From NCBI RefSeq assembly GCF_001707825.1, contig NZ_LYBM01000003.1, positions 146,354 through 210,353 of the forward strand: a stretch of 64,000 nucleotides of DNA, written 5' to 3'. How positions within the stretch are numbered: position 1 is the stretch's first letter; every line of letters begins with the position of its first letter. The notes under the pieces were generated by a model. The model had not been told where the DNA came from and ran no database searches. It was given only the letters and a program-made list of their open reading frames with translations. This document shows, in pieces, positions 27,747-63,572 of this stretch. The stretch is from Veronia pacifica (lineage in GTDB: Bacteria; Pseudomonadota; Gammaproteobacteria; Enterobacterales; Vibrionaceae). A program made the position numbers and the translations under genes.

Positions 27747-28774
27747 ATGACCACACTAACAATTACACGCCCTGATGACTGGCATGTCCATCTTCGTGAT
27801 GGAGAGGTACTGGCTGATACGGTCCGCGATATCAGTCGATACAATGGTCGTGCGCTTATCATGCCGAACACTGTCCCTCCTGTTACAAATAGTGAAATGG
27901 CTATCGCCTATCGCAACCGTATTATGGCTGAGCAACCGTCAGCGCACTTCGAACCACTGATGGCTTTATATCTCACGGATAACACAACGCCTGACGATAT
28001 CAGAGAAGCAAAGCGCACTGGTGCAGCTGTGGCAGCAAAGCTTTACCCGGCCGTGCAACCACGAACTCAGACTCAGGTGTTACATCAGTCAAAAATATCT
28101 ATTCAGTATTGGAGACAATGCAGGAAGTCGGCATGTTGTTGCTGGTTCATGGTGAGGTAACCACTCATGATGTTGATATTTTCGACCGCGAAAAAGAGTT
28201 CCTGGATACAGTTCTGGCACCGATAGTGAATGACTTTCCGGGCCTGAAAATTGTTCTTGAACACATTACCACGGCAGACGCGGCAAACTTTGTAAAAAAC
28301 GCCAACGATAATGTCGCCGCTACGATCACTGCTCACCACCTGATGTATAACCGTAACCATATGCTGGTCGGCGGTATCAAACCTCACTTTTACTGCTTAC
28401 CCATACTCAAGCGGAATACGCACCAGAAAGCACTGGTTGAAGCGGCAACCAGTGGCAGCAAGAAGTTTTTCCTGGGAACAGATTCCGCACCCCATGCCAA
28501 GGGGCAAAAAGAATCCGCATGTGGCTGCGCAGGTTCGTACACCGCACATGCGGCATTGGAACTGTATGCCGAAGTATTTGAGCAAGAGGGAAAACTCGAA
28601 CATCTTGAAGCCTTTGCGAGCCATAACGGCCCTGATTTTTATGGTCTTCCACGAAACAGTGATACGGTGACACTCACCAAAGAAGAGTGGGCAGTGCCAG
28701 AAACAATGCCTTTTGGCTCAGATATTGTTGTCCCGATACGCGCAGGCGAGATGCTAAGCTGGAAAGTGAAGTAG
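27747..28774 (+). pseudogene. pyrC: dihydroorotase carrying a -1 frameshift near 28055
   Basis: ORFs 27747..28160 and 28109..28774 are jointly collinear with E. coli PyrC. After LYPA the frame moves to +2, where [39 protein letters not shown] continues the match. Confidence 0.85.
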
Positions 28775-34645: not shown

Positions 34646-37600
34646 TCAATGACTTTCTGCCTCGCTACTCGGACTGAACCGGGAGAGTTGCTGGTTAAGC
34701 AATGCCAGTTGCTGCACAACCTGACCGCCTCTGTCTTCGGTATCTCCCATGAGTTGCTGACGTTGGTAACCTTCTTTGATGTTCTGCCAACGAGCTTGTT
34801 GATCGGGTGTCATGTCACCGCGTATTTCAGCCAGCTTGAGCAGGTTCTCCTCAGTGCCGGCTGCCAGAGTCTGTGCCTCTCCCTGATAATGATCCTGCAG
34901 CAAGGTATTAAGCTCTTGGTCTGTCATCACGGCTGAGATCTTCTCTGACAACTTGTTCATGTTGCGATAGGAACCCTGCAGTTTAAACGGCGGTTCAATA
35001 CGGTATTGGTCGGCAGTGGCCGCAGACTGAATGTACTGCTGGTTGACTTTCAGCACCGTCTGTTGAGCCAACATCAGTTTCTGCAGCGTGGTAACGATTT
35101 CGTTAGCCTCGGTAGATGAGTAAGCATGGCTCATTTCACTCAGTGCAATACTCTCACCCTGTGCCATAGCGACAAAGCGATAAAGATCGTTGAGATCACG
35201 GGTCGCCAAAGGCGCAAGTACACTGTTGGAGGTCAGTGAGTTTTCGATAAAGCTCAGTTCAAATGCAACTTTCTGATCAGAAAGCATGTCACCAAGGTTA
35301 TAAATATCAGCACGGTTAGCGAGCATATCCGGAATACGGAAGGCCTCACCACTCTCGGTATAAGGGTTACCTGCCATCGCAATCGCGAATTTCTTACCCC
35401 GCATATCATAGGTTTTGGTTTTTCCTTGCCAGGTGCCTTCAATACGTCTGGTACCGTCACAGAGAGAGATAAATTTCTGTAAAAATTCCGGATGAGTATG
35501 CTGGATATCATCAAGATACAAGAGCACGTTGTTACCCATTTCAAAGGCGAGGTTAATTTTCTCTATCTCACGGGCTGCATTTTGATCAGGGGCATCGGCG
35601 GGATCCAAAGACGTCGCCTGATGACCAATTGAAGGTCCGTTGATCTTCATAAAAACCAGACCCAGCTTATGCGCTACATACTCAATGAGTGTGGTTTTTC
35701 CGTAACCCGGCGGAGAAATGAGTAGCAACATACCCATCAAATCTGTACGTTTTTTGTCACCCAGTGTCCCCATCTGCTTGGCAAAGTTATCACCAATCAA
35801 GGGCAGGTAACTGTCACTGATCAACTTATTTCTGACAAACGAGGTAAGCGGACGCGGCTTGAATTCATTGAGACGAAAATTCTCTTTTGCTGAACTCAAC
35901 ATCTCAGTTCGTTGTGAGAGGTAGTTTTCAAATTCCGGCAACACTCTGCATCTATGATGTTCATTGCGCAGCAGAAAATCGTCCAAGACCAGAGACAACC
36001 TGCCGTTTTGCAGCCTGTCGTGCTCTCCGAGCAAACCCTGCACCTCGCAGGCTAACGAAAAGTCATCACTGACGATGCTCAAGTCGGAACAGGTTCTCAC
36101 CACGGCAAGTGTCGCTGCCTCTACAACAAAGTCCGCACCGTACGATTTTTGTTTGGTGTAGGCCGTCAGCCACTGTTGGTGATCGACAAACAAGTCCTGT
36201 ATCGGTCCTTTAGTAGGCTGCCAGCCCAAGCTGCGGCGAAATTGAAGATAATCGTCACAAAGGCTCTGCGCATCCTGACTGACCGCGATACGCCGATCGG
36301 CATCCGCCAAGACATTCACTAAATAATCAGCGGCTTCAGCGGATTGTTCACCGTCGATCCGCTCAGACAGTTGTTGCTGGAGCTCATGGTAAGCCTCTAA
36401 GCAATTGAGATGGCTCTTGAGCAGGTTGGCGTTGGTAGCACTAACACGAAACTGCATCAGTGTGTCCGCCGGGCATGCGATCAGCCACAGTAAGGCCGAC
36501 GATCGGGCGAGCTGACTGAATCGCAATAAACCAGCCTGTTGGTAAACAGGTAAAATGCTCTCAAGGATCGCTGTCGCATCATTATCGTGAATGCCTTTTA
36601 CATAGCCCTCCCGATAGCGTGGAGCAGCAAAACGCTGCACATGCGACAGTAAATCTCCTTGTTTCGTTAACTCTGCAAGATCGGACAAGGTCTGCCCTTG
36701 CTCATTATTGACCGCCTGATGAAGTACCAGATAAGCGAGAAACTCAGCGCGATAAACCTGCTCACTCTCCGACGCCACATCAAGTCTCGCCATTGATTGC
36801 AGCTTGAGAAAAGCCTGATCTTCAATTGTCTGATAAAAGTCAGTACCAGAAATATGGGTACAGAGCTGTCCTTTGTGATCAACCAGAGACAAATCGAGAG
36901 GTTGTTGGTTAACACTGAATCTATGTTTTCCCAATCGAAGGACTTTGCCGCCCTGCTCAAAGATGTCTTGATTATCACGCAATGATCGCAATGACTGATC
37001 TTGCAAAGACTTGATACGTGAATCAACACTGTCAGCTTTAACGCTGTCGCCCAGTTCGCGAATCGACTGCGACAGCTGGTGTAATTTGAGCACCATTGCA
37101 TCTGTTGCAAAATAACTGTTCAGCGCCGCAACATCATCAAAACGCTCTACCCGCTTTTCGATACTGGTAATCGTCACGTTGGCAGCCTGCAATAGATTCT
37201 GCACCCGGCGTTGTTGGCCCGCCACCAACTGCTGTTTGTGGTTTTCCAGTGTCGACTGGATCTCGTCACGCTTGGCATAAATCTCAGCCAAAAACTGATC
37301 AAAATCAGCAAAACGAGATTCAAGTTTATCTAATTGACCAACCAAACGAGCGAGTTGATTGTCGCATTCATCCGGCGTCGTCGCCTGCTCCATGGCACTA
37401 CTGACAGACTGGCTGAGCAACTTAAACTGCGCACTGAACTCGGCTTGTGCCTCCTCGCTCTGCAAACTTTTTGCTTTTCCGCGAAGCTTTGCCGATACCG
37501 TATTTAATAGGGAAGAAACCTCTGTTGTCAGGTCCAGAATACGAGTCGCCTGCGTCGGGTCCTCTGTCTCTATTTCAGTGACTTCTTCAGTGACCAGTTG

Positions 37601-39514
37601 TAAGTCGCTACGTAAAATATCGACCTGTGATTGGAGTTGCTGAAGGTCTGCTGTTTTTTGCAGTTTACCGAGTTGTTCTTCGATCTCTTCGATCTGTTTT
37701 CTATAGGGTAAATAGGCTTTTTCTTCCTGCAGCAACGTCAGTAACTGATGATTCAAAGACTCCCGCTGTTCCTGCAAGATTGCCAGCAATTGATCGAGTT
37801 CTACCTGATCGACATAATGTTGCTGGCGAAGCGCCATGACGGCACCCACCTGACCTTTTACCTCTGACAATAATGCCAGTAAGGTATTAGCCTGATCCTT
37901 TGGCGCAAGTTTAATTTTTCCGCTGAGTTCCGTTAGTACCTGCTGTTGGTGCTCAACACTTTTTGCTGCGTGTGACTGAAGCTGCTGAACCTTAGCAAAC
38001 TCATCAATGATTTTGTCAGCCGTATCCATCAACTCCGTGATGGCCTGTCCTATACCCTGTGCATAATCATGTTCGAGCCAGTTATAGTGATCACGGGTTG
38101 ACTGACACTGCTTCAGCAACACCTCATAAGCAGTTTGTGTAACCTCTTCAGTCTGGGAAAGCTGACAAATAGATAATACTGACGATAACGCCCTAACCAG
38201 CTCTGCGTTACCGAGATTAAATAAAGGGCTACCAGCGCTTGATGATCCATTGATATTGGCGTAGTGCTCAGTGGTCGAAAAAGGTGTTTCCCATACGCGA
38301 AGAGGATGGATAGTCGAGGCATCCGCATTTTCAGACAGCTGGAAAACTAACATCCGGCCATCTGGATAAAGGCTATAACCGTGGCTCTCCATCGGTGCCT
38401 CAAACCGCTTCTCAATCAGGTTGTAGGTATAGGAGATATAATGGCCCGACACTGCATCGAAGAAGATATAGAGGATATCTTCACCATTCGGTGACGTGAT
38501 CATCTGGAAAAACTTCAGGTGTTCAGGTTCAAAATCGAACTGTTTACGTTCTCCGTTCGCCAACACATAACCGCTGGCATATAACACCCCATGGCCTTCT
38601 GGTAACACTTTAAAACTGCTTGCCATCGCGTCAGCACGAACCACTGACTGGTTTAATGGGTTATAGATAAAGTAGCGGCTCTTTTTTTCTCGGCTGGGCC
38701 TGATTCTGAGCGCAATTAAGTCGTCAACAAATGCATAGGCAATGTCAGCATCAGCAACGCTTTGATAAGGATCATCAACTTCTTCACTATAGATACCCTT
38801 GCCATCTTGCGTGTTGTCCTCAATTTTGATGCTCAGGTCACCGCCGATGCAATCCACAAACAAACGGTCTTCAATCGAAACATGGGGATGGTCGCCAAGT
38901 ATATGATTGTCACGGTTAGTCGATTGCCATTCCACGTCAAACTGGGCCACGCTCTCAAGTGGCGTATGGCCATGTGAGTCAAGGTATTCCGTCGAGCCTG
39001 CATTGAGCTGAAAACGAAACACCTTCCTATCTTCAGGTCGCGTACCAATCTGGAAGGCAATGTAAAGAACATTCTCCTGTCGCGAAATTTGCGACAGCCT
39101 TGCATCACGGTAATAGGTGAATAGCTCAGTAAACTCATGAACGAAGCGTGGATCAGCAAGAAAGCTGTCATCAACGGCTAGGGGCTCAACTCTGAAGGCC
39201 CCCTCGTTGTCATGAAACTGATAGAGGCCGAAGACATCAGAAAGTGACGGCGTCACTTTCATGCCAACTTTTACATGGTAACCAAACAATAATTGCTGAT
39301 TGACCTGAGCCATATCAATGGGAATACAGCGGGCATCGGTCTGAACATTAGCCTTTCCGACCAGTTTTCGTTCCTGACCGCCAAAGATCTGTTGCCGAGC
39401 TTGATTGAATGACTGAGAAAGAGAGGATAAATGCTTGCCCTGTTGGGACAGACGGGATTTCAGAACCTCGTAAGCACCGCCTTCACTCACAGCCTTTTGT
39501 GTCGTGTCTGACAT
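34646..39514 (-). CDS. 1622-aa protein with an embedded MoxR/AAA_5-type AAA+ ATPase module (about residues 1180-1340), coiled-coil rich; function unknown
   Basis: Walker A ISPPGYGKTTLIEY, Walker B VLLYLDDI, sensor-1-like AMAGNPYTE and Arg finger IPDMLANRADIY. The flanking regions show no recognisable domain. Confidence 0.75.
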   Translation of the reverse strand: MSDTTQKAVSEGGAYEVLKSRLSQQGKHLSSLSQSFNQARQQIFGGQERKLVGKANVQTDARCIPIDMAQVNQQLLFGYHVKVGMKVTPSLSDVFGLYQFHDNEGAFRVEPLAVDDSFLADPRFVHEFTELFTYYRDARLSQISRQENVLYIAFQIGTRPEDRKVFRFQLNAGSTEYLDSHGHTPLESVAQFDVEWQSTNRDNHILGDHPHVSIEDRLFVDCIGGDLSIKIEDNTQDGKGIYSEEVDDPYQSVADADIAYAFVDDLIALRIRPSREKKSRYFIYNPLNQSVVRADAMASSFKVLPEGHGVLYASGYVLANGERKQFDFEPEHLKFFQMITSPNGEDILYIFFDAVSGHYISYTYNLIEKRFEAPMESHGYSLYPDGRMLVFQLSENADASTIHPLRVWETPFSTTEHYANINGSSSAGSPLFNLGNAELVRALSSVLSICQLSQTEEVTQTAYEVLLKQCQSTRDHYNWLEHDYAQGIGQAITELMDTADKIIDEFAKVQQLQSHAAKSVEHQQQVLTELSGKIKLAPKDQANTLLALLSEVKGQVGAVMALRQQHYVDQVELDQLLAILQEQRESLNHQLLTLLQEEKAYLPYRKQIEEIEEQLGKLQKTADLQQLQSQVDILRSDLQLVTEEVTEIETEDPTQATRILDLTTEVSSLLNTVSAKLRGKAKSLQSEEAQAEFSAQFKLLSQSVSSAMEQATTPDECDNQLARLVGQLDKLESRFADFDQFLAEIYAKRDEIQSTLENHKQQLVAGQQRRVQNLLQAANVTITSIEKRVERFDDVAALNSYFATDAMVLKLHQLSQSIRELGDSVKADSVDSRIKSLQDQSLRSLRDNQDIFEQGGKVLRLGKHRFSVNQQPLDLSLVDHKGQLCTHISGTDFYQTIEDQAFLKLQSMARLDVASESEQVYRAEFLAYLVLHQAVNNEQGQTLSDLAELTKQGDLLSHVQRFAAPRYREGYVKGIHDNDATAILESILPVYQQAGLLRFSQLARSSALLWLIACPADTLMQFRVSATNANLLKSHLNCLEAYHELQQQLSERIDGEQSAEAADYLVNVLADADRRIAVSQDAQSLCDDYLQFRRSLGWQPTKGPIQDLFVDHQQWLTAYTKQKSYGADFVVEAATLAVVRTCSDLSIVSDDFSLACEVQGLLGEHDRLQNGRLSLVLDDFLLRNEHHRCRVLPEFENYLSQRTEMLSSAKENFRLNEFKPRPLTSFVRNKLISDSYLPLIGDNFAKQMGTLGDKKRTDLMGMLLLISPPGYGKTTLIEYVAHKLGLVFMKINGPSIGHQATSLDPADAPDQNAAREIEKINLAFEMGNNVLLYLDDIQHTHPEFLQKFISLCDGTRRIEGTWQGKTKTYDMRGKKFAIAMAGNPYTESGEAFRIPDMLANRADIYNLGDMLSDQKVAFELSFIENSLTSNSVLAPLATRDLNDLYRFVAMAQGESIALSEMSHAYSSTEANEIVTTLQKLMLAQQTVLKVNQQYIQSAATADQYRIEPPFKLQGSYRNMNKLSEKISAVMTDQELNTLLQDHYQGEAQTLAAGTEENLLKLAEIRGDMTPDQQARWQNIKEGYQRQQLMGDTEDRGGQVVQQLALLNQQLSRFSPSSEAESH

Positions 39515-39571
39515 GCTGATACCTGTTTATCCCGTCTCTGATGAGACGGGATCCTGTGAGAGAGAAAATAG

Positions 39572-41659
39572 TTAAGCTTGGATATCTGATGGGGTGGCCA
39601 GAGAGCTCTGAATCTTCTTGAGTAGCTCCGTCGCACCACCTTGGGAATTCAATAGGCTGGCAAGTGCCACATTACTCAGATCACTACTTTTCATGTCAGT
39701 ATTTTCAAGAATGGCTTTAATGTCTTCTGGCAAGCTGCGATTACCGTCGATGTAATCAGACACCAGTGGGTTGAGCACTTTTGATTGCTCAAATTTAGTA
39801 TCAACGGCTGCCGCATCAAGAATAGTGCGACGGATTTGTTCCATCCCTTCACCGCCGAACAACTTGATGTCCGCTTTACTTAAGGCTTCCGCCAGAGCTT
39901 TGGCGTTTTCACTGACAATCGCTTTCTGTGCGTCAATACGCGCGACTTCCAGCTCTTTGTTTTGCTGCAACTGCATTACCCACTTGTCATGCTCACGGGT
40001 ATGCTCATCGTATTGCTGAGCCGCCTCAAACCTCGCCGTTTGTGCTTCTGCTTCTGCCAGACCTTTCGCACGCAATGCCTGCGCTTCTGCCTCACCCGCA
40101 CTTTGTAAGGTGTAAGCTTCGGCTTCGCCTGTTTCCTTGATAGCTTGCGCACGTTCGCGCTCCACTTCGACTTCTGCCAAGCCCGTCGCGCTTATCACTT
40201 CTCTCTCTGCCTGTGCCATCCGTTCTTTTGCCGCGGCTTCACGCTCTTTCGCGACATAATCAGCCTCAGCTTGCTTAGTTTTTACTACCTGATCCGCTTC
40301 AGCCTGACGGGTTTTCACAGCCAGTTCATTCTCAGCGTCGCGAGTTTTCACCTTGAGGTCCGCTTCATTCTCAATCAAGGTGCGCTCAGCTCGCTCACGG
40401 GCCGCTTCTTTCTCTGCTCGGGCAGCCACCAGTAACTCCAATTGCGCAGATTCAGCCGCCGCCTCCGCTTCAATCAGCTTGACCCGTTTCTCACGATTCA
40501 CTTTTTCGTTTACGCGAAGATTTTCGGTTTCTTCCTCTTCACGGGCAATTTTACGCTCAATTTCGACCCGTTGTGATCGCGTTTCGGCAACTGATTTTAG
40601 TGCCTCTTCCACCGTGGTCTCTTTTTGCATTTCACGCTCGGCAACCTCTGTCGCCGTTCTGACCTTTTCGGTCTCAACAGAGCGGTTGAGATCTTCTTCT
40701 TGTATTGCCACCTGACGCCGATTGGCAATACGGGTCATTTCGACTTCCATCTGCACACTTTCACGTTTTTTGGCGACTTCTTCTTCTGTCTCCAGCTTGG
40801 CAAGCTGAGTGATACGCTCGTATTCTTCCCGTTTTTCTGCTGCCAATGCTTCTTCTTGCGCTTTAATGATGTCAATCTCGCGCTGGGTACGGGCAATGCT
40901 TTCTTTTTCCTGTTTGTCGAGTTGCAGGCGGTTCGCTTCAGCCTCGACGTTTTTCTTTTTCATTGTGGTGCGCTCATCCTGACGGATAGCGTTGGTCTCA
41001 GTATTTTTCTGCGCTGTGATCGCAGAAATCTTTCTAATCCCCTCCACATCGAGGATGTTATCCGGTCTGTGGGCATCAAGTGCTGTCTGGTCAATCTTGT
41101 CGATCACAACATCGTAGATCTTGAAACCATCCATCTCGCTGCCAATCACATTGACCACCGCATCACGGAAAGCGCGGCGGTTAGTCAGCAACTCTTCAAA
41201 CTCAAACTGTTTAACTGCCGTCTTTAATGCTTCAGAAAACTTTGGCTGGAAGTGCTCTTTTAGACGATCCAAGTTAGAGGCTTCGTGAGCAGTGAACAGC
41301 TTGGCGACGCGAACGATATCCTCTTCTTCATGATTCACACCAATATAAAAATCTACTTTCAGATCAGCGCGAATATTATCCCGGCAATGCAAGCCTTCAT
41401 ATTCTTCACCTTCCTGGTCTTTCTGACCGCTACGGATCACGGAAATTTTTTTGCGGGTGATATCCATATATTCATGGCGATTAACAATCGGCCAGATAAA
41501 GGTTCCCGTCAACGATGCTCGGGTACGATGAAGTCCGTTAACGATGAGGGCATCACCCTCTCCACGCACTTTCTTGTAGCGTGAGGTGATAAAAATGAGA
41601 ACCAATAAAACGACACCAATTGCGGTGCCTGTAAAAATTATGCCGGGAGAAATATCCAT
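39572..41659 (-). CDS. flotillin-family SPFH/band-7 protein (YqiK/FloT-like)
   Basis: N-terminal TM helix, an SPFH domain, and a long EA/EAEA-rich coiled-coil tail. RBS aggag sits 6 nt upstream. Confidence 0.85.
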   Translation of the reverse strand: MDISPGIIFTGTAIGVVLLVLIFITSRYKKVRGEGDALIVNGLHRTRASLTGTFIWPIVNRHEYMDITRKKISVIRSGQKDQEGEEYEGLHCRDNIRADLKVDFYIGVNHEEEDIVRVAKLFTAHEASNLDRLKEHFQPKFSEALKTAVKQFEFEELLTNRRAFRDAVVNVIGSEMDGFKIYDVVIDKIDQTALDAHRPDNILDVEGIRKISAITAQKNTETNAIRQDERTTMKKKNVEAEANRLQLDKQEKESIARTQREIDIIKAQEEALAAEKREEYERITQLAKLETEEEVAKKRESVQMEVEMTRIANRRQVAIQEEDLNRSVETEKVRTATEVAEREMQKETTVEEALKSVAETRSQRVEIERKIAREEEETENLRVNEKVNREKRVKLIEAEAAAESAQLELLVAARAEKEAARERAERTLIENEADLKVKTRDAENELAVKTRQAEADQVVKTKQAEADYVAKEREAAAKERMAQAEREVISATGLAEVEVERERAQAIKETGEAEAYTLQSAGEAEAQALRAKGLAEAEAQTARFEAAQQYDEHTREHDKWVMQLQQNKELEVARIDAQKAIVSENAKALAEALSKADIKLFGGEGMEQIRRTILDAAAVDTKFEQSKVLNPLVSDYIDGNRSLPEDIKAILENTDMKSSDLSNVALASLLNSQGGATELLKKIQSSLATPSDIQA

Positions 41660-41676
41660 TTTAACTCCTGAAGTAT

Positions 41677-42306
41677 TTATCTATCTGCTTTTGCAACAAA
41701 ATAACGTGATGACGTTGAATCTTTACTAACGATGATGACATCATCACCATATTGAATATCGATATCAGGCTCAGAGACCGCATCTAGCAGGAACTCACTG
41801 CCTTTATGAAGTACCACTATTTCCCCCATATATTCATTGATAATACTGCTGTGCACCCTCGCCCGCAGACCGACAAAGTCGACGGTGGCAAATGCTTTTT
41901 TCTTGTCAAAGAGGGGAATGAGAGGTTTGAGTACCCATGACGAGACGGCAAGTCCCGCATACGCGATGAGAGGAATAGAGATCAGGTTGGCGAACAAAAT
42001 TGCGATACCTGATAACTGGCTGTGAATCAGTAGTGAAACATAAAATGCCGCAACCGTAGCAATGAAGAATGATACGCACATTGCCACCGTCAGAGGCACT
42101 TTCGATAATACTGGCGGAAGTAGGAGCCCGGAACCGGGAATATTGTCAAGGTCGAAAATGTCGAGATCGGCAGTGAAGCCATCAACGACGTTGAAGACCA
42201 GATCCACCAGCATGATCAAAGAAAAAACAACGAATGGAATAAAAAAAACATTAACTGGAAACGAAAATAGCGTCGAAAAAAAGTCATTTATATTCATAAT
42301 TGGCAT
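41677..42306 (-). CDS. YqiJ/NfeD-like inner-membrane protein (flotillin partner)
   Basis: Multi-TM N-terminus plus an NfeD-like soluble C-terminal tail. It sits 17 nt upstream of the flotillin gene, as in E. coli yqiJK. Confidence 0.65.
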   Translation of the reverse strand: MPIMNINDFFSTLFSFPVNVFFIPFVVFSLIMLVDLVFNVVDGFTADLDIFDLDNIPGSGLLLPPVLSKVPLTVAMCVSFFIATVAAFYVSLLIHSQLSGIAILFANLISIPLIAYAGLAVSSWVLKPLIPLFDKKKAFATVDFVGLRARVHSSIINEYMGEIVVLHKGSEFLLDAVSEPDIDIQYGDDVIIVSKDSTSSRYFVAKADR

Positions 42307-52606: not shown

Positions 52607-53464
52607 ATGACAGCAAAACCGATCTTTCTTTTGGCGGCAGTCTCATCACAGCTCTTTGTTTTAAGTGCAAACGCCGCCCATCATGGCGAAGTTAGTGACT
52701 CTATCATTGCCAAACAAAGAGAAAATCTAATCTCCAATACCATGGGTAAGGGATTTGGACCGCAGTCTCCGCGCAATATCGATTCGATTGTCGGAAAAAA
52801 CCCTATTACTTTTGGTCAGGCACCGACATCGTCGTCTATGAACCTTTGTAATATCCACTTCCATAAAAATGCTGAACATGCAGGCGGAGAGTTCACACGT
52901 TATGCGGGAAACGGGGATGGTAAGGGCTATCAGAGTGGTTACACTTATAGCGGTAACCTAACGGCTAAAGAACTGACTCCAGTCAATAGGGAAGTTTGTC
53001 CAAGCTCACACGGAGGGCTAAAACCAGGAGACACCATTGAGGTACATTACGTGCATTCAACCGCTCATGTGGAGCCGGGGCCAACACTGGGCGCATGCCT
53101 CAGCGATGCGAATAAAAACCCTCAACTTCGGGTTGAAGCGCAGGTGTTTGTGTTGGTTAATGACCAAGGGGCTATGGACTTTAACCAGCTCACACGAATC
53201 GGCACTCAAAATGGCTTTCAACAGGCTGTAAACATTCCGCAAAACATGGGTAAGCCAGTTGAATATTCAGGCTCAACGACAGGTCCCGGATACAACGAAA
53301 AAGGCTCACCATTTCAGGTCAGTTGGAGCGTAAGACCTAAAGTTGCCAAACTAAATATCCACTCGGTGGCTCAATGGTGTGAGGGAAATGTGTTTAAGGA
53401 AAAATATGGGCACGGTGTCCGTAACCTAGTAAAAAACCCCGCGTTACTGTCCACCATTATGTAA
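52607..53464 (+). CDS. secreted alpha-carbonic-anhydrase-like protein (divergent)
   Basis: Signal peptide. QSPRNIDSI resembles the alpha-CA QSPIDI motif. HFH in NIHFHKNAEH and EVHYVH line up with the three zinc-ligand histidines. Strong RBS taaggagg. Confidence 0.5.
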   Translation: MTAKPIFLLAAVSSQLFVLSANAAHHGEVSDSIIAKQRENLISNTMGKGFGPQSPRNIDSIVGKNPITFGQAPTSSSMNLCNIHFHKNAEHAGGEFTRYAGNGDGKGYQSGYTYSGNLTAKELTPVNREVCPSSHGGLKPGDTIEVHYVHSTAHVEPGPTLGACLSDANKNPQLRVEAQVFVLVNDQGAMDFNQLTRIGTQNGFQQAVNIPQNMGKPVEYSGSTTGPGYNEKGSPFQVSWSVRPKVAKLNIHSVAQWCEGNVFKEKYGHGVRNLVKNPALLSTIM

Positions 53465-58794: not shown

Positions 58795-58951
58795 CGATTG
58801 ACTGTGCTCGCTCTTATGACACTGGAAAACAGAGCTATCAAGCCCAATAAAAGGTCTTAGATCAAAATAACAATGCAAATAGAAATGGTTTGCATTTACA
58901 TTTTTCGATGAATATCATCCCGACTCTTTTTTCCAAACCACTTTGAGCAGT

Positions 58952-60661
58952 ATGAAACATCGCTACCTATTCCTCATGATCACAGCAGCCTTACTGACAG
59001 GTTGTTTTGACAACACCAGCTACACTTCAACCGATTCTGAAACAAAAACCGACGAAAGCAAAGACAAAGAAGATGGAGGCAAGGACAAAGACAAGGACGA
59101 AGACGAAGACAAAGAAGGCTCCGATGGAACGAAGCCAGAACAAGTCGTCCGCCTTTCTCCCAGTGATATCAACATTCTTGATACTCATAAAGTCAGTTTT
59201 GCTGTCCCCGGAATGCAAGCTGGAACAGCTCAGGCACTCGCAGACATAACCGCCAACTTCGGTGATGTGTCCGTCGACAGCAAGTTGGGTGTCATGACTC
59301 TTGATGCATCGCCCAAAGGCACCCAAAACGACACCGCCAGTATCTCAACATCGAAAAAAGCGTCAAACGCTAACTACCAATTCACCATCGCGTACTCCAT
59401 CGACAAGCAACGCTACAAGGTGTCTGGATATGCCGTTCCCTACTTCAAAGATGACAATGAACAATTGGTAAAACGCTTCACTAAAATGAATGAAGACGGT
59501 TCTCTTTTGGAAGGCGATGAACAATATCTTTCTGCCAATGATCAACCATGGGCATGTATTCAGGATGCCAGTACCGACCTAATCTGGCAGGTTCCCTCTG
59601 TAGCCGGTGAGTTTGCTTACGACGCCACGTACTACTGGGGTGATAGAATCGTCAATCACAGGGATTTCACTCAAGCCGCCTGTGGACTGGCAAAAGACTG
59701 TAATTCCGACAACCTGAAAGCCTATGCCAATCAAATTGCACTGTGCGGAAATAGCGACTGGCGCTTGCCCACGTCGGCAGAGTGGAAGACTATTCTTGAT
59801 AACAAAATGTTTGACGATAAAAAGCGTCAGCCGCCAATCGATCTCGCGTTTTTCCCCTATGTTGACGCTAATTATGATGAAGCATACTGGACTAACAGGT
59901 TCACACAATATCCTGATGGTCACGATGCTAAAGGCAGCTCCGATGACTGGCAGGGCTCAAATGCGCTAGTTGGTGACGCACATGTTATGTGGATGAGTAG
60001 TGACTTTGATGACATAAGAATCCCGCCTCGCTCCACCAATGAGCCTCACTTTACACTTCTCGTGCGCGGTAAAACCATCGCTGACAAATCAGACAATACG
60101 AAAGATGGTATTACTGAAACACTCGAGAATGAAGTCAACAAAGACAGTGATGAAGATGAAAACTGGACAGCAAGATTCATCAAGATAGGCAGCTATGGCC
60201 AAGCCCTGCGAGACCAGCAAGTCGCAGAATGGTCTTGTACCAGCGATACCTTTTACCGTGCTGATATGCCTAACACCCAAATCCTTTGGCAACGCCTCGA
60301 TAATGACCAGCCCATGTCTTTCAGCGATGCAGAGCAGTATGTTAAAGATATCAATGCCAACACGCTATGTGGTAGAAATGACTGGCGCCTGCCTAATGAA
60401 AATGAGCTGAAATCTCTATTGATTAACCGTGTTTCCTACGGGATACCAGATACTCTGGGAGCGGGTTATAGAAGTAGTGTACTCGACGATACTGTGGTCG
60501 AGTATGACAGTTATTACTGGACATCAACACCAAGTAGTTACTATCCAGATACCAAGCATATGGCCGTTGCTTTTCAGACTGAATTTTCTGAGAGCAGTGC
60601 GGTTGCTAACGAAAAAACTGCCCGCGTCCGCTTAATTTCGACATCCAGTATCCAGCCATGA
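58952..60661 (+). CDS. lipoprotein with acidic low-complexity tether and two DUF1566 (Lcl C-terminal-type) domains
   Basis: Lipobox LLTGC. D/E/K-rich linker. Two DWRLP(T/N)xxE motifs (NSDWRLPTSAEW; RNDWRLPNENEL). Confidence 0.7.
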   Translation: MKHRYLFLMITAALLTGCFDNTSYTSTDSETKTDESKDKEDGGKDKDKDEDEDKEGSDGTKPEQVVRLSPSDINILDTHKVSFAVPGMQAGTAQALADITANFGDVSVDSKLGVMTLDASPKGTQNDTASISTSKKASNANYQFTIAYSIDKQRYKVSGYAVPYFKDDNEQLVKRFTKMNEDGSLLEGDEQYLSANDQPWACIQDASTDLIWQVPSVAGEFAYDATYYWGDRIVNHRDFTQAACGLAKDCNSDNLKAYANQIALCGNSDWRLPTSAEWKTILDNKMFDDKKRQPPIDLAFFPYVDANYDEAYWTNRFTQYPDGHDAKGSSDDWQGSNALVGDAHVMWMSSDFDDIRIPPRSTNEPHFTLLVRGKTIADKSDNTKDGITETLENEVNKDSDEDENWTARFIKIGSYGQALRDQQVAEWSCTSDTFYRADMPNTQILWQRLDNDQPMSFSDAEQYVKDINANTLCGRNDWRLPNENELKSLLINRVSYGIPDTLGAGYRSSVLDDTVVEYDSYYWTSTPSSYYPDTKHMAVAFQTEFSESSAVANEKTARVRLISTSSIQP

Positions 60662-63213
60662 AAAAAGACTGTTCCATTAAGGTTGCTGCACTTGTTGCAG
60701 CAACCCTTTTCGTCACTGCCTGTGGCGGAGAAAACGCATCACCCGAGAAAACGACAACGCCGGACATTCAGCAACCCGTTGATCTCAAACCGAAACGTGA
60801 GGTCAGTGTCGCAAGTACATTTACCTTCCAATATTCACTGTCAAAAAATGCACAAATACGTGTCGTTGAACCCGCGTTACTGGGCAAAGTGAGTATAGAT
60901 AACAGGCTGCTTACCTATACCGCGCCGAAGAATAAAACAGGTTCAGACCGTTTCAAGCTAGAAATCATCGAGCAGGCCAAGGTCAAAACGGTTCGATGGT
61001 TGATTCGGGTCAATGCGATGGAACCGCGTTTTCATCAAATACCTCTCGGACAAGCGGAAGCAGCACAGCACTGGCAATGTGTTTCCGACAACAAAACTCA
61101 CCGTGGTATCACTTGGGTAGTGCCACTGCATCCAAACAACGAAACCTTCGCGTGGCAAGACTGGGAGGCAACATTGCCAAACCTGTCTGCACAATGTTCT
61201 GTTTCAGACGGGCCGTGTAATACTGACGCCCTAATTCAACAGGCTAATTCCCAAAGCTGGTGCGGTAAATCTGACTGGCGCCTGCCTTACGCATACGAAA
61301 TGCGTAATATCACCAGTGAACAGGACTTCGCTCTCGACAGAAACCGACCCGCTATCGATCCCTATTTCTTTGGTAGTGTGGGTTTCGAGCAATATTGGTT
61401 GGCTACCGATGCGTCTGCGAAAAATGCTGAAAACTTCGCGTACAGGCACAGCTTTGGCACAGAACGTAAAAAAATGTCGCTTGCGAATAAGCGTAATCCT
61501 ACCTCTGTCATGCTGGTAAGTGGCGCATTCCGCGATCCCACCAAACCCGATCAGCAGGACAAACCGCAGGATGAGGCAACCAGTTTTATACGGTTAAACA
61601 ACAAAGGGCGTCCGCTAGCCTCAGCCAAACAACAGGACAGTTTCAGCAATTCACCATGGCGCTGTCTGGACGACATGCGTAGCTTGGTCCGCGATACTCT
61701 TTACCTCAGGGATGGGCGTTTTTCCTATCTTTACTGGTTGACGCCGAATGGCAGTGATATCACCAGCACCAGCAATTTATATCAACGCGACCCGCTGGCA
61801 GCAGAGTGCGGACAGCAACAATGCTCGCTGGATGCTGTGATCGCACAGATAAATAGCGGAAAACAATGCGGCCGAAGTAATTGGCGTCTTCCCACTGCTG
61901 ATGAACTTGCCCTGTTGATGTATCAAGAGGTCAATGGCGGTGCTTACAGACTTTTGTATCAGGTATCTCTTAATAATCCTGAATCGGGTGATTACTGGGT
62001 AAAAACAAAAGATAGCCAACAAGTCGGCATTCTCTCGTTACCTCGAACTGAATCACTTGAACCAGTGACAGATATTGATGCCTCTGCCAAAGCACGATTA
62101 CTTCTGATCGCAACAGAATTTGAACCCCTGGCAACAGAGGATCCCCGTTCAATAGGCCAACACGGAAAGCCTGATTTCCGCCGTCTTCGCCGTGACTACG
62201 CGACACATCCAGACAAGTGGCCTGAACCTTTTATCGATGATCCGGACAATTATCAGGAGCTTGGTATACTGCCTGCGGTTCAGTTTCCAGCAGAAAACCC
62301 TTACAGTGCGAACAAAGCAGCACTCGGTAAGCGTTTGTTTTTTGATACCTTCTTGTCGCGGAACAATGATGTTTCCTGTTCTAGCTGTCATGATCCCCAA
62401 AAGGGCTGGACGGATCATCTCGAGGTCTCCATTGGCCACGACAGACAGAGAGGGAAGCGAAACGCACCGACCGTGGTCAATAGCGGTTTCTTGCCAACAC
62501 TATTTTGGGACGGGCGTGCAGATACACTTGAACAACAGTCACTGATGCCGATTCAGGATCCGCTGGAAATGGCAGAAGATTTGTCCAGTCTGGTTGCGCG
62601 ACTCAACGGACACGCAGAGTATCCTGCAATGTTTGAAAAAGCGTTTCAACAAACACCGATCACTGAAGATCAACTGGGTCAAGCACTGGCGACATTCCAA
62701 CGCACCTTGGTGAGTAATGGCAGCCAGTTCGACAAATTTGTCAAAGAAGCACCACTCGGTAAAACTGACGCTCTTTCTGATCAAGCATTGTGGGGACTCG
62801 ACATATACCGACGTAACGGACGATGTGTGAATTGTCATATGGGACCTGAGTTTACCAATCATCAATTCGAGAATGTTGGCTTAACGTACTACAAGGCATT
62901 CTATGAAGATCTCGGCCGTTACAATATTGATGGTGAAAGCACCAGTGTCGGTAAATTTAAGACGCCTTCACTCCGCGACGTAATGAACACCGGACCATGG
63001 TTCCATAACGGCCTCGTACCGACTATGGATGGCGTGGTATCCATGTACTCAGAGGGCATGGCCAGCAACGCGCCTTTCGGCTGGGACAAATATGATCCCA
63101 ACTACCCGGTGCTATCGGAAAAAATACGACCTTTAAATCTGACTGTGCAGGAAAGTGAGGCACTCAAAGCGTTTCTGAAAGCCATCACTGCAAACAGTCC
63201 GGAGGCGAGTTAA
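60658..63213 (+). CDS. lipoprotein fusing two DUF1566 domains to a C-terminal di-heme cytochrome c peroxidase/MauG-family domain
   Basis: Lipobox FVTACG. DWRLP motifs (KSDWRLPYAYEM; RSNWRLPTADEL). Heme motifs CSSCHD and CVNCHMG in a CCP-like C-terminal ~330 aa. ATGA overlap with the upstream gene. Confidence 0.75.
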   Translation: MKKDCSIKVAALVAATLFVTACGGENASPEKTTTPDIQQPVDLKPKREVSVASTFTFQYSLSKNAQIRVVEPALLGKVSIDNRLLTYTAPKNKTGSDRFKLEIIEQAKVKTVRWLIRVNAMEPRFHQIPLGQAEAAQHWQCVSDNKTHRGITWVVPLHPNNETFAWQDWEATLPNLSAQCSVSDGPCNTDALIQQANSQSWCGKSDWRLPYAYEMRNITSEQDFALDRNRPAIDPYFFGSVGFEQYWLATDASAKNAENFAYRHSFGTERKKMSLANKRNPTSVMLVSGAFRDPTKPDQQDKPQDEATSFIRLNNKGRPLASAKQQDSFSNSPWRCLDDMRSLVRDTLYLRDGRFSYLYWLTPNGSDITSTSNLYQRDPLAAECGQQQCSLDAVIAQINSGKQCGRSNWRLPTADELALLMYQEVNGGAYRLLYQVSLNNPESGDYWVKTKDSQQVGILSLPRTESLEPVTDIDASAKARLLLIATEFEPLATEDPRSIGQHGKPDFRRLRRDYATHPDKWPEPFIDDPDNYQELGILPAVQFPAENPYSANKAALGKRLFFDTFLSRNNDVSCSSCHDPQKGWTDHLEVSIGHDRQRGKRNAPTVVNSGFLPTLFWDGRADTLEQQSLMPIQDPLEMAEDLSSLVARLNGHAEYPAMFEKAFQQTPITEDQLGQALATFQRTLVSNGSQFDKFVKEAPLGKTDALSDQALWGLDIYRRNGRCVNCHMGPEFTNHQFENVGLTYYKAFYEDLGRYNIDGESTSVGKFKTPSLRDVMNTGPWFHNGLVPTMDGVVSMYSEGMASNAPFGWDKYDPNYPVLSEKIRPLNLTVQESEALKAFLKAITANSPEAS

Positions 63214-63572
63214 AGCAGGCTACCAAATCATTCGTCTCAGACCTTGCTTATAGAAAGCTGCTAAAAATTCGTTCGCAGTGGTTATATCCAAAGTGATGAA
63301 AACGAATATATTAAAAAAGGCCTTTCTGGCGACAACGGAAAAAAAGAGGGCGATACGGCAGAGTATCGCCCCTTAATTCACCTTTATAAGGTTACTTGTC
63401 GCTCGCCAAAGAACATAGGCGTTCTCGTCAGTTATCCATACAAGTCGTTCGAAAAGAAAAGAGATTGATACCTTAACCTCCAAAATAACCTCGCATATAA
63501 AACACTTGGATTAAAATTAAGAGTTAGATGTTTAACGATAACTCAGTCACTCATGAGATCCAGGTAAAACTA

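What the first reader, a model, noticed from the sequence alone, without database searches (positions are those of the whole stretch)
58952..63213. Two overlapping DUF1566 lipoprotein genes, the second fused to a di-heme cytochrome c peroxidase
Both proteins carry lipoboxes and two DWRLP(T/N)xxE DUF1566 modules. The first also has a long D/E/K-rich tether. The second ends in a complete CCP/MauG-type di-heme domain (CSSCHD and CVNCHMG). DUF1566 is a surface/adhesin-associated module of unknown function. A surface-anchored peroxidase with such modules, co-expressed through an ATGA overlap with a DUF1566-only partner, looks like a distinctive envelope oxidative-defence or protein-maturation device.
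Basis: partly seen in the sequence, partly recalled or inferred. Interest (0 to 1): 0.6.

Follow-up and report, generated by a model that had tools for sequence, protein, structure and literature searches.

The report
Lectin-like lipoprotein pair with MauG-type di-heme enzyme
Two overlapping genes of the marine bacterium Veronia pacifica encode paralogous membrane-anchored lectin-like proteins, the second fused to a two-heme enzyme that resembles protein-modifying oxidases (MauG/MbnH) more than a peroxide-detoxifying peroxidase. In most related bacteria the gene pair sits behind an iron-starvation (Fur) switch.

Summary
ORF1 (58952-60661, 569 aa) and ORF2 (60658-63213, 851 aa) overlap by ATGA. 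Both have lipoboxes and two Pfam Lcl_C (formerly DUF1566) modules. ORF2 ends in a complete di-heme CCP_MauG domain. The fusion is not a frameshift artefact: it is full-length in at least 14 Photobacterium, Vibrio and Moritella genomes, always directly after an ORF1 orthologue, with unrelated flanks.

New findings:
- ORF1 is a paralogue of ORF2's N-terminal half.
- The E-heme ligand position holds an invariant Tyr797 that aligns with MauG Tyr294 and the MbnH Tyr, not the Met of canonical peroxidases. The CCP-type distal His594 is nevertheless retained.
- Orthologous promoters carry Fur boxes abutting a conserved -35 (one perfect, 9 of 12 within 3 mismatches). The Veronia copy is degenerate.
- The nearest stand-alone di-heme relatives all sit beside a large lipoprotein and a TonB-dependent receptor.

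Best reading: an iron-linked envelope module in which lectin-like domains hold a macromolecule for remote oxidation by a MauG-type enzyme. Simple peroxide defence is less likely. The substrate is unknown. This is a new variant of a known enzyme kind and is moderately interesting.

The parts
58872..58896 (+). Imperfect palindrome AATGCAAAT-N8-TTTGCATT, whose right arm overlaps the -35. It occupies the position where orthologues have a Fur box. In this window the Fur match is only at background level (5 mismatches of 14).
58890..58918 (+). Promoter: -35 TTGCAT (58890-58895), 17-nt spacer, -10 TATCAT (58913-58918). The same architecture is conserved upstream of all orthologous cassettes.
58952..60661 (+). 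ORF1, a 569-aa lipoprotein and paralogue of the N-terminal half of ORF2.
58952..59005 (+). ORF1 signal peptide with lipobox LLTG|C (Cys18 at 59003-59005).
59006..59137 (+). ORF1 D/E/K-rich disordered tether (residues 19-62). Its composition is not conserved in orthologues.
59138..59491 (+). ORF1 beta-rich, Ig-like region (residues ~63-180), modelled with pLDDT 76-93.
59537..60067 (+). ORF1 Lcl_C module 1 (residues ~196-372, DWRLPTSAE at 269). It includes an ORF1-specific invariant His/Met/Trp-rich insert, YPNGHD..DWQGSN..GDAHVMWM..PPRSTNEP (residues 306-367, 59867-60052).
60164..60658 (+). ORF1 Lcl_C module 2 (Pfam best stretch 441-562, DWRLPNENE at 477).
60658..60661 (+). ATGA start/stop overlap (translational coupling). 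Orthologues have a 4-nt overlap, a 1-nt overlap or a 4-nt gap.
60658..63213 (+). ORF2, an 851-aa lipoprotein: Ig-like domain, two Lcl_C modules and a MauG-type di-heme domain.
60658..60723 (+). ORF2 signal peptide with lipobox VTA|C (Cys22 at 60721-60723, invariant in the family).
60790..61023 (+). ORF2 Ig-like (Big_9-type) domain, residues ~45-122. pLDDT is 85-90. Big_9 is hit in 3 of 20 family members. hhalign gives 94% probability against the N-terminus of the lipoproteins in the TonB-receptor-linked clusters.
61066..61527 (+). ORF2 Lcl_C module 1 (Pfam 141-287, DWRLPYAYE at 206, four invariant Cys).
61579..62127 (+). ORF2 Lcl_C module 2 (residues ~308-490, NWRLPTADE at 408), pLDDT 80-93.
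62128..62265 (+). Conserved linker and N-terminal extension of the heme domain (EDPRS..H..P..LR..Y...WP.PF.DD). It is partly shared with the stand-alone relatives.
62266..63210 (+). Di-heme CCP_MauG domain (residues ~537-851).
62377..62391 (+). Heme motif 1, CSSCH (peroxidatic P-heme).
62437..62439 (+). His594 (SIGH), equivalent to the distal His of activatable bCCPs (the residue mutated to Gly in MacA entry 4aao). It is invariant here; MbnH has Ser at this position.
62506..62508 (+). Trp617 (FWDGRA), the inter-heme tryptophan. Invariant.
62824..62838 (+). Heme motif 2, CVNCH (E-heme).
63046..63048 (+). Tyr797 (SMYSEG). It aligns with MauG Tyr294, the Tyr of MbnH 'IYSEG' and N. europaea CCP Met258. 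It is invariant in all clades, whereas the preceding Met796 is not.

Best explanation
This is a self-contained bicistronic envelope module. It encodes two paralogous lipoproteins, each built as signal/lipobox, flexible tether, Ig-like domain and two C-type-lectin-like Lcl_C modules. The second protein is fused to a di-heme enzyme of the bCCP/MauG superfamily whose electron-transfer heme is predicted to be His/Tyr-ligated, as in MauG, MbnH and BthA.

Proposed mechanism, with shown and inferred steps marked:
- (1) Both proteins are exported, lipidated and made in fixed ratio through translational coupling. The sequence features are shown; the process is inferred.
- (2) The family is expressed from a conserved sigma-70 promoter whose -35 is abutted by a Fur box in most orthologues, which implies induction under iron limitation. 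The boxes are shown; regulation is inferred. The Veronia copy has only a degenerate box.
- (3) The lectin-like modules bind a macromolecular ligand. This could be the partner ORF1, the enzyme's own N-terminal half, or an external glycan or glycoprotein. This step is inferred.
- (4) The di-heme domain reacts with H2O2 to form a high-valent, bis-Fe(IV)-type oxidant and oxidises the bound target at a distance, as MauG does with pre-methylamine dehydrogenase and MbnH does with MbnP. This step is inferred from the Tyr ligand.
- (5) The physiological context is metal (iron) acquisition rather than bulk peroxide detoxification. This is inferred from the Fur boxes and from the nearest stand-alone relatives lying next to a large lipoprotein and a TonB-dependent receptor.
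For: - Domain content.
- Paralogy: ORF1 residues 198-497 are collinear with ORF2 residues 137-428, E = 9e-16.
- Cassette conservation: the two genes are adjacent in 14 species genomes with non-conserved flanks, and also in the divergent P0071 cassette.
- Tyr ligand: Tyr797 aligns with MauG Tyr294 and the MbnH Tyr and with N. europaea CCP Met258. It is invariant across fusion clades and stand-alone relatives, while the preceding residue varies M/F/I.
- Literature criteria: the His/Met versus His/Tyr criterion is from PMC11892367. Mutating the Tyr to His abolishes bis-Fe(IV) formation in MauG and BthA (PMC6405878). MbnH installs kynurenine on MbnP (PMC11951088).
- MbnH resemblance: the C-terminal tail after the Tyr matches MbnH 6e1c, E = 1.9e-12, better than any CCP.
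- Promoter: -35 and -10 with 17-nt spacing are conserved in all orthologues.
- Fur boxes: the 7-1-7 Fur box has at most 3 mismatches in 8 of 11 cassette promoters against 8 of 121 background intergenic regions (Fisher p = 1e-6). A perfect TGATAATAATTATCA lies upstream of the P0071 cassette.
- Relatives: 15 of 15 nearest stand-alone di-heme homologues (42-51% identity) lie within three genes of a Plug-domain TonB-dependent receptor, and 14 of them sit beside a ~930-1075-aa lipoprotein as well.
- Precedent: a DUF1566 gene pair lies in the Fur-regulon list with a TonB-dependent receptor in V. parahaemolyticus (PMC12341060).
Against: - The Veronia promoter itself has no convincing Fur box: 5 of 14 mismatches, which is background level.
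- The heme domain is overall more similar to canonical peroxidases (1iqc, E = 1.6e-48) than to MauG (1e-27). It keeps the CCP-type distal His594 and the Gln/Pro/Glu pocket residues.
- It falls below the NCBIfam cut-offs for both MauG and MbnH.
- BthA shows that a Tyr-ligated enzyme can still turn over H2O2.
- Ligand identity rests on sequence alignment only. The AlphaFold model of the heme domain was of low confidence.
- No substrate is identified.
- Two divergent fusion proteins lack the partner gene, so ORF1 cannot be an obligatory substrate family-wide.
- Fur-box counts are not phylogenetically independent.
Confidence: 0.45

Rival explanations
1. Tethered canonical peroxidase. ORF2 would be a periplasmic H2O2-scavenging di-heme cytochrome c peroxidase held at the outer membrane by its lipid anchor. 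The lectin-like modules and the partner would serve only for localisation or scaffolding (envelope oxidative defence).
For: - The best PDB sequence matches are canonical bCCPs (1iqc 1.6e-48, 3o5c, MacA).
- Both CxxCH motifs, the inter-heme Trp, the distal His594, the Gln/Pro/Glu pocket and the Ca-site motif regions are conserved.
- BthA shows that Tyr-ligated enzymes can still reduce H2O2 catalytically.
- NCBI names the protein 'cytochrome c peroxidase'.
Against: - The Met ligand that defines canonical bCCPs is replaced by an invariant Tyr (criterion).
- No OxyR- or FNR-like operator was found, whereas Fur boxes are enriched.
- The distribution is narrow and accessory-like, with variable flanks.
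- The nearest relatives are embedded in TonB-receptor clusters.
- No cytochrome or cupredoxin electron donor is encoded nearby.
Confidence: 0.2
2. MbnH/MbnP-like maturation pair. ORF1 would be the dedicated substrate. The ORF2 heme domain would oxidise a specific Trp or other residue in ORF1, for example in the invariant GHD..DWQGSN..AHVMWM insert, to create a metal-binding or redox cofactor site. The matured ORF1 would then act as a metal-capturing lipoprotein.
For: - The two genes are tightly coupled and the pair is conserved.
- ORF1 has a family-specific, invariant His/Met/Trp-rich insert that is absent from ORF2 module 1.
- The enzyme has an MbnH-like 'YSEG' Tyr motif and C-terminal tail.
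- MbnH acts on a co-encoded Trp-rich partner next to a TonB-dependent transporter.
- Fur boxes are present in orthologues.
Against: - P0116 and P0185 carry the same fusion architecture without any Lcl_C partner gene.
- ORF1 shows no similarity to MbnP or to any solved structure by sequence.
- The insert is modelled with low confidence.
- No modification has been observed.
Confidence: 0.2
3. Adhesin pair with an electron-transfer module. The two lectin-like lipoproteins would be surface adhesins like Lcl or Lsa25. The low-potential di-heme domain would work as an outer-membrane cytochrome, for example reducing Fe(III) chelates under iron starvation, rather than as an H2O2-dependent oxidase.
For: - Lcl_C domains occur in adhesins (Lcl binds glycosaminoglycans; the Lsa25 model gives a weak hit), and hundreds of large adhesin-like proteins share the domain.
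- MauG-type E-hemes have low potentials.
- Fur boxes are present in orthologues.
Against: - The peroxidatic pocket residues (Gln626, Pro631, Glu637, distal His594) are invariant, which argues for peroxide chemistry.
- No surface-export evidence or secretion genes lie nearby.
- No other multiheme cytochromes are in the cassette.
Confidence: 0.08

Closest known systems
MbnH (di-heme MauG-like enzyme of methanobactin operons; PDB 6e1c) with its substrate MbnP and the transporter MbnT
   Same: - Di-heme CCP_MauG fold.
- The Tyr in an 'xYSEG' motif aligns at the E-heme ligand position.
- The C-terminal tail after the Tyr is similar (E = 1.9e-12).
- The inter-heme Trp is present.
- It is co-encoded with a periplasmic partner protein.
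- Relatives of ORF2 sit beside TonB-dependent receptors, as MbnPH do.
- The context is metal homeostasis.

   Different: - ORF2 is below the TIGR04039 cut-off (197 against 363 bits).
- ORF2 keeps the CCP-type distal His594 where MbnH has Ser.
- There is no MbnP homologue. The partner is instead an Lcl_C lipoprotein and the enzyme itself is fused to Lcl_C modules.
- The metal context is iron (Fur), not copper.
- No product is known.
MauG (tryptophan tryptophylquinone biosynthesis enzyme; PDB 3l4m)
   Same: Two c-hemes, the inter-heme Trp, and Tyr797 aligned with the ligand Tyr294. It is the paradigm for remote oxidation of a bound protein substrate.
   Different: - Weak overall similarity (E about 1e-27; TIGR03791 206 against 444 bits).
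- No mau operon and no methylamine dehydrogenase genes nearby.
- ORF2 has the distal His.
- ORF2 is a lipoprotein with three extra domain types.
Canonical bacterial di-heme cytochrome c peroxidases (N. europaea 1iqc, Shewanella 3o5c, Geobacter MacA 4aal)
   Same: Highest overall sequence similarity (E = 1e-48 to 1e-44). Shared features are SIGH, FWDGRA, the Gln/Pro/Glu pocket and both heme motifs.
   Different: - The E-heme Met ligand is replaced by Tyr.
- ORF2 has an extra MbnH-like C-terminal tail.
- ORF2 is fused to Ig and Lcl_C domains and carries a lipid anchor.
- Orthologues have a Fur-box promoter.
Lcl C-terminal domain / DUF1566 proteins (Legionella Lcl, Leptospira Lsa25-type lipoproteins, and the V. 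parahaemolyticus Fur-regulon DUF1566 pair VP_RS22165/22170)
   Same: - Pfam PF07603 modules with the DWRLP core.
- The lipoprotein context resembles the Leptospira proteins.
- Fold-search hits are weakly C-type-lectin-like.
- In V. parahaemolyticus two adjacent DUF1566 genes are listed in the Fur regulon together with a TonB-dependent receptor.

   Different: - There is no collagen-like stalk and trimerisation is not shown.
- The modules are tandem within one chain and are disulfide-containing (four invariant Cys in module 1), whereas Lcl-CTD has none.
- A fusion to a heme enzyme was not found in the searchable literature.
- Homology to the V. parahaemolyticus pair beyond the shared domain was not tested.

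Membership tests
bCCP/MauG superfamily (Pfam PF03150) | Profile match above the gathering threshold, with two CxxCH heme motifs | tested here: met
   185.3 bits against a 25.6 cut-off. CSSCH is at 574-578 and CVNCH at 723-727, invariant in 20 family members.
bCCP/MauG superfamily (Pfam PF03150) | Inter-heme tryptophan and peroxidatic pocket Gln/Pro/Glu | tested here: met
   W617 (FWDGRA), Q626, P631 and E637 align with the N. europaea CCP residues and are invariant or nearly so.
Canonical bacterial cytochrome c peroxidase | His/Met ligation of the E (high-potential) heme | tested here: not met
   The position aligned to N. europaea CCP Met258 is Tyr797. The adjacent Met796 is not conserved in sister clades, where it is F or I. 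The criterion is from PMC11892367. This is an alignment-based test, not a spectroscopic one.
Canonical bacterial cytochrome c peroxidase | Distal His on the P-heme loop (the reductive-activation ligand) | tested here: met
   H594 in SIGH aligns with the His that is replaced by Gly in the MacA variant 4aao. It is invariant.
MauG-type di-heme enzymes | His/Tyr ligation of the six-coordinate heme | tested here: met
   Tyr797 aligns with MauG chain residue 294 (..LFYNK, ending at 296) and with the MbnH IYSEG Tyr. It is invariant. Coordination itself is not testable here.
MauG (TTQ biosynthesis, TIGR03791 equivalog) | Score above the equivalog cut-off, and a mau operon context | tested here: not met
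   206.3 bits against a 443.85 cut-off. The neighbours are GNAT, bPH_2 and other unrelated genes, with no mau genes.
MbnH family (TIGR04039) | Score above the cut-off, and a co-encoded MbnP | tested here: not met
   196.9 bits against a 362.85 cut-off. ORF1 has only Lcl_C domains and no match to any PDB chain, MbnP structures included.
MauG-type di-heme enzymes | Formation of a bis-Fe(IV) state with H2O2 and oxidation of a protein substrate | not testable with these tools
   This requires purified protein with near-infrared, Mossbauer or EPR spectroscopy, and mass spectrometry of candidate substrates.
Lcl_C / DUF1566 (PF07603) | Profile match above the gathering threshold | tested here: met
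   ORF1 scores 106.5 bits and ORF2 71.1 bits (cut-off 34.9), with two stretches each. All 27 ORF1-family and all 20 ORF2-family members match.
Lcl_C / DUF1566 (PF07603) | C-type-lectin-like fold | tested here: inconclusive
   [quoted passage not shown] The module models are partly low-confidence.
Lcl_C / DUF1566 (PF07603) | Trimer with a basic glycosaminoglycan-binding surface, as in Lcl | not tested
   No multimer modelling or electrostatics tool was available.
Bacterial lipoproteins | Signal peptide ending in a lipobox [LVI][ASTVI][GAS]C | tested here: met
   LTG|C (ORF1) and VTA|C (ORF2). The Cys is invariant in both families. Lipidation and the final compartment are not testable.
Fur regulon | Fur box (TGATAATNATTATCA / GATAATGATAATCATTATC) overlapping the promoter | tested here: inconclusive
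   Window copy: 5 of 14 and 8 of 19 mismatches, which is background level. Orthologues: 0-3 mismatches in 9 of 12 promoters, at a fixed position abutting the -35, against 8 of 121 background regions.
Diversity-generating retroelement target (common for DUF1566 proteins) | A template/variable repeat pair and a nearby reverse transcriptase | tested here: not met
   There are no direct repeats of 40 nt or more anywhere in the window.

The most novel reading that the evidence does not exclude
The cassette could be a new protein-derived-cofactor system analogous to MbnPH. Under iron starvation, the fused MauG-type domain would oxidatively modify a tryptophan or other residue within a C-type-lectin-like module, either of its paralogous partner ORF1 (for example the invariant AHVMWM / GHD insert) or of its own N-terminal half. 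That would create a metal-binding or redox-active site and convert a lectin scaffold into an outer-membrane metal-capture protein.
Probability: 0.15. Interest if true: 0.85.

Novelty: new variant of a known kind. Interest (0 to 1): 0.55.

Why it matters
MauG-type di-heme enzymes are rare examples of enzymes that build cofactors in other proteins by long-range radical chemistry. Only MauG and MbnH have known substrates, and BthA's function is still cryptic.

This family physically fuses such an enzyme to putative ligand-binding (lectin-like) modules and pairs it with a paralogous partner. That narrows the search for its substrate to a short list that can be tested directly by mass spectrometry. 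The enzyme also mixes a CCP-type distal His with a MauG-type Tyr, which makes it a natural test case for what tunes peroxidase chemistry against bis-Fe(IV) chemistry.

The Fur boxes and the TonB-receptor-linked relatives suggest an unexplored role for these enzymes in iron acquisition by marine Vibrionaceae, Moritella and Pseudoalteromonas. They would also give the widespread DUF1566/Lcl_C domain a second functional context besides adhesion.

Tried and rejected
- **Frameshift artefact joining two genes: rejected.** ORF2 is one ORF of 846-943 aa in 14 species genomes and in metagenomes. The window does contain at least one genuinely split gene, galT.
- **Diversity-generating retroelement target: rejected.** The window has no repeat pairs.
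- **Functional link to window neighbours: rejected.** The neighbours are GNAT, a bPH_2 pair, S51 peptidase, nucleotidyltransferase, glyoxalase and delta-carbonic anhydrase. Flanks are conserved only within genera.
- **OxyR, FNR/CRP and Zur boxes upstream:** nothing better than background.
- **MbnP-like partner:** no Pfam or NCBIfam hit and no PDB sequence match for the ORF1 family profile.
- **Lcl_C modules hidden in the large lipoprotein of the TonB-receptor clusters:** not found. Only the N-terminal lipobox and Ig domain is shared.
- **Word-indexed homologue search with the N-terminal half:** returned only three proteins and was uninformative. The exhaustive search replaced it.
- **AlphaFold model of full ORF2:** the heme domain had low confidence, because the alignment is shallow and the model has no heme. 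It could not be used to decide Tyr against Met or to assess domain docking.
- **Literature:** the MbnH primary papers were not held. Searches for iron-regulated MauG-like proteins were noisy. No paper links DUF1566 to a CCP fusion.
- **Rfam:** no RNA families anywhere in the window.
- **Exact palindrome search in the window:** no further copies.

Full report
**Source and observation**

The window is from Veronia pacifica (Vibrionaceae). ORF2 is 100% identical to an NCBI protein of that species annotated 'cytochrome c peroxidase' (UniRef name: 'Methylamine utilization protein MauG'). ORF1 is identical to a 'DUF1566 domain-containing protein'.

- ORF1 (58952-60661, 569 aa) and ORF2 (60658-63213, 851 aa) lie on the + strand and overlap by ATGA.
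- Both begin with signal peptides that end in lipoboxes: LLTG|C18 and VTA|C22.
- Pfam finds two Lcl_C (PF07603, formerly DUF1566) stretches in each protein. It also finds a CCP_MauG domain (185 bits) in ORF2, with CSSCH at 574-578 and CVNCH at 723-727.
- The D/E/K-rich tether of ORF1 is real, but orthologues have S/T/P/Q-rich linkers instead. It is therefore a generic flexible spacer.

**Not an artefact; a conserved two-gene cassette**

- Full-length ORF2 homologues (54-64% identity, 849-883 aa, same Pfam pair) occur in Photobacterium, Vibrio and Moritella and in marine metagenomes.
- In 14 species genomes the ORF2 orthologue is always immediately preceded by an ORF1 orthologue (45-54% identity), with a 4-nt or 1-nt overlap. 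The flanking genes are conserved only within genera.
- A more divergent cassette (P0071: 38% identity in the N-terminal half, 60% in the heme domain) keeps the partner.
- Two still more divergent lipoproteins, P0116 and P0185 (~875 aa), have a different N-terminal domain, two Lcl_C-like modules and a heme domain 45-46% identical. They have the same overall architecture but no partner gene.
- An exhaustive HMMER scan of 1.84 billion representatives with the N-terminal half found only three relatives at E <= 1e-30. The other ~940 hits are generic single Lcl_C matches in large adhesin-like proteins.

The family is narrow, and the constant unit is the fusion itself.

**Anatomy**

- ORF1 residues 198-497 align collinearly with ORF2 residues 137-428 (24% identity, E = 9e-16). 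ORF1 is therefore a paralogue of ORF2's non-heme half.
- AlphaFold models give confident beta-sandwich (Ig-like) domains after the tethers and a confident second Lcl_C module in both proteins.
- Big_9 is detected in 3 of 20 ORF2-family members.
- Foldseek returns Ig-like domains and bCCPs for ORF2. [quoted passage not shown] This agrees with the published C-type-lectin-like fold of the Lcl C-terminal domain, which binds sulfated glycosaminoglycans (PMC11162425).
- Module 1 has four invariant Cys, which suggests disulfides in an oxidising compartment.
- The ORF1 family carries an invariant insert that ORF2 lacks: YPNGHD..GDWQGSN..VGDAHVMWM..PPRSTNEP, residues 306-367. It is rich in His, Met and Trp and is modelled with low confidence.

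**What kind of di-heme enzyme**

By overall sequence the domain is closest to canonical peroxidases (N. europaea 1iqc, E = 1.6e-48), then MbnH 6e1c (4.7e-43), then MauG (~1e-27). It is below the NCBIfam cut-offs for both MauG and MbnH.

The literature criterion separating the two functional classes is the E-heme ligand. It is His/Met in canonical bCCPs and His/Tyr in MauG-type enzymes (PMC11892367). Mutating that Tyr abolishes the bis-Fe(IV) state in MauG and BthA (PMC6405878).

- In HMMER alignments, ORF2 Tyr797 (SMYSEG) aligns with MauG Tyr294 (..LFYNK), with the Tyr of MbnH 'IYSEG', and with Met258 of the N. europaea enzyme.
- Tyr797 is invariant in both fusion clades and in the stand-alone relatives. 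The preceding Met796 is replaced by F or I in those relatives, so it is not a conserved ligand candidate.
- The ~50-residue tail after the Tyr matches MbnH better than any CCP (E = 1.9e-12).
- ORF2 nevertheless keeps the CCP-type distal His594 (SIGH), where MbnH has Ser. It also keeps FWDGRA (Trp617) and the Gln626, Pro631 and Glu637 pocket residues.

The domain is thus a hybrid: a CCP-like peroxidatic pocket combined with a MauG/MbnH-like E-heme. This rests on alignment. The structural model of this domain was too poor to add anything.

**Regulation**

- All orthologous cassettes share a promoter with -35 TTGCAT/A, a 17-nt spacer and -10 TAnnAT. In the window these are at 58890-58895 and 58913-58918.
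- Immediately upstream of the -35, most orthologues have a Fur box. Against the 7-1-7 consensus TGATAATNATTATCA there are 1 mismatch in two Moritella loci, 2 in four loci and 3 in two loci.
- Only 8 of 121 other intergenic upstream regions from the same loci reach 3 mismatches or fewer (Fisher p about 1e-6; these lineages are not independent).
- The divergent P0071 cassette has a perfect TGATAATAATTATCA.
- The Veronia copy does not reach this level. It has 5 mismatches and instead shows an imperfect palindrome, AATGCAAAT-N8-TTTGCATT.
- No OxyR-, FNR/CRP- or Zur-like site stands out.

Iron-responsive repression is therefore well supported for the family but not shown for this particular copy.

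**Relatives and context**

- The nearest stand-alone di-heme proteins (42-51% identity) are in Pseudoalteromonas, Alteromonas, Cognaticolwellia, Psychrobium and Thiomicrorhabdus. They carry the same His and Tyr.
- In 15 of 15 of these loci the gene lies within three genes of a Plug-domain TonB-dependent receptor. In 14 of them a ~930-1075-aa lipoprotein sits beside the receptor.
- In the Pseudoalteromonas-group loci this lipoprotein starts with Big_9/cadherin-like Ig domains. hhalign matches that N-terminus to the N-terminus of ORF2 (probability 94%). The lipoprotein has no Lcl_C modules.
- This arrangement resembles MbnT-MbnP-MbnH, in which MbnH converts a Trp of MbnP to kynurenine to make a copper site (PMC11951088).
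- Independently, a V. parahaemolyticus transcriptome study lists two adjacent DUF1566 genes in the Fur regulon. They sit in one cluster with an S9 peptidase, a TonB-dependent haemoglobin/transferrin/lactoferrin-family receptor and a P-domain protein (PMC12341060). Whether those proteins are specifically related to ORF1 and ORF2 was not testable.
- In the window itself the neighbours are unrelated.

**Interpretation**

I favour, at about 0.45, an iron-linked envelope module. In this model the lectin-like modules hold a macromolecule, and the MauG-type domain oxidises it remotely using H2O2.

- The sub-hypothesis that ORF1 is the dedicated substrate (an MbnP analogue) is attractive because of the translational coupling and the His/Met/Trp-rich insert. 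It is weakened by the partner-less clade.
- A plain tethered peroxidase remains possible at about 0.2. Overall similarity to CCPs is high, the distal His is kept, and BthA shows that Tyr-ligated enzymes can still turn over peroxide.
- An adhesin-plus-cytochrome reading is least supported.
- Surface exposure is not established. The residue after the lipidated Cys is G in ORF2, but it varies (F, N or D) among ORF1 orthologues.

**Novelty**

- The proteins are in public databases under generic names.
- No paper in the searchable library connects DUF1566/Lcl_C with a CCP/MauG fusion.
- The enzyme class, the lectin-like domain and lipoprotein anchoring are each known.
- New here are the fusion, the paralogous partner, the hybrid His-plus-Tyr heme-site signature, the Fur-box promoters and the link to TonB-receptor clusters.
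- I rate it a new variant of a known kind, with interest about 0.55. It would rise sharply if an ORF2-dependent protein modification were found.

Noticed in passing
window 6232-7285 (- strand): galT (galactose-1-phosphate uridylyltransferase) is split into two overlapping ORFs in different frames. ORF 6764-7285 covers the N-terminal domain, positions 3-166. ORF 6232-6855 covers positions 159-184 plus the C-terminal domain. This is either a frameshift pseudogene or an assembly indel.
   Followed up: partly
window 27747-28774 (+ strand): Two overlapping ORFs (137 aa and 221 aa, different frames) both read like halves of a dihydroorotase (PyrC-like N-terminus ..[10 protein letters not shown]..). 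This may be a second frameshifted gene. Pfam gave no hit at E <= 0.001, so the identification is unconfirmed.
   Followed up: partly
window 19228-19242: The best Fur-box match in the window is TGATAATGGTTATCA (1 mismatch). It lies just upstream of a minus-strand pair: a PAS-domain protein (18783-19211) and a flavodoxin/FAD/NAD-binding reductase (17221-18780). On the other side it faces a + strand gene encoding an ABM-like, signal-peptide protein (19983-20738). This is a candidate iron-regulated divergent promoter.
   Followed up: partly
window 63347-63372 (- strand) and intergenic region 63214-63571: A strong intrinsic-terminator-like hairpin (10-bp stem, 6 G-C pairs, then a T-run) lies on the minus strand directly downstream of ORF2, with no minus-strand ORF to terminate. 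The 360-nt gap could hold a small minus-strand transcript. There is no Rfam match.
   Followed up: partly
window 60681-60705: A perfect 10-bp-stem hairpin (GGTTGCTGCA-CTTGT-TGCAGCAACC) lies inside the ORF2 signal-peptide coding region, 24 nt after the ATGA junction. It could modulate translational coupling, or it could simply reflect the Ala/Val-rich codons. Conservation in orthologues was not checked.
   Followed up: no
window 34646-42306 (- strand): A three-gene block on the minus strand: a 1622-aa protein with DUF3686 ('ATPase involved in DNA repair'), DUF7902 and an AAA domain, then a 695-aa protein with no Pfam hit, then an unscanned 209-aa ORF whose N-terminus looks hydrophobic. It looks like an uncharacterised ATPase system, possibly defence-related.
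   Followed up: partly
window 52607-53464: A secreted delta-class carbonic anhydrase (Pfam CA_like, E = 1.5e-83). This class is best known from diatoms.
   Followed up: partly
L015-L027 (e.g. L015 4124-11059); L029 and L032: A conserved trio in Pseudoalteromonas, Alteromonas, Colwellia and Psychrobium: a ~930-aa Big_9/cadherin lipoprotein, a ~900-aa TonB-dependent receptor, and a Tyr-ligand-type di-heme protein. Thiomicrorhabdus has the order di-heme, ~1060-aa lipoprotein, receptor. This is an uncharacterised uptake-type cluster of its own. Most of the lipoprotein (~700 aa) has no Pfam match.
   Followed up: partly
L043, L047-L052, L055, L058-L060, L063, L066, L068, L071: In Bacteroidota and related metagenome-assembled genomes, the same di-heme clade occurs as tandem pairs of two paralogous di-heme genes (~340 and ~365 aa). 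In Verrucomicrobiota it occurs as ~580-620-aa proteins with an unidentified N-terminal extension.
   Followed up: no
window 59867-60052 (ORF1 residues 306-367): An ORF1-family-specific invariant insert (YPNGHD..GDWQGSN..VGDAHVMWM..PPRSTNEP) with conserved His, Asp, Met and Trp residues. It is absent from the paralogous module of ORF2 and is modelled at pLDDT below 50. It is a candidate metal or modification site.
   Followed up: partly
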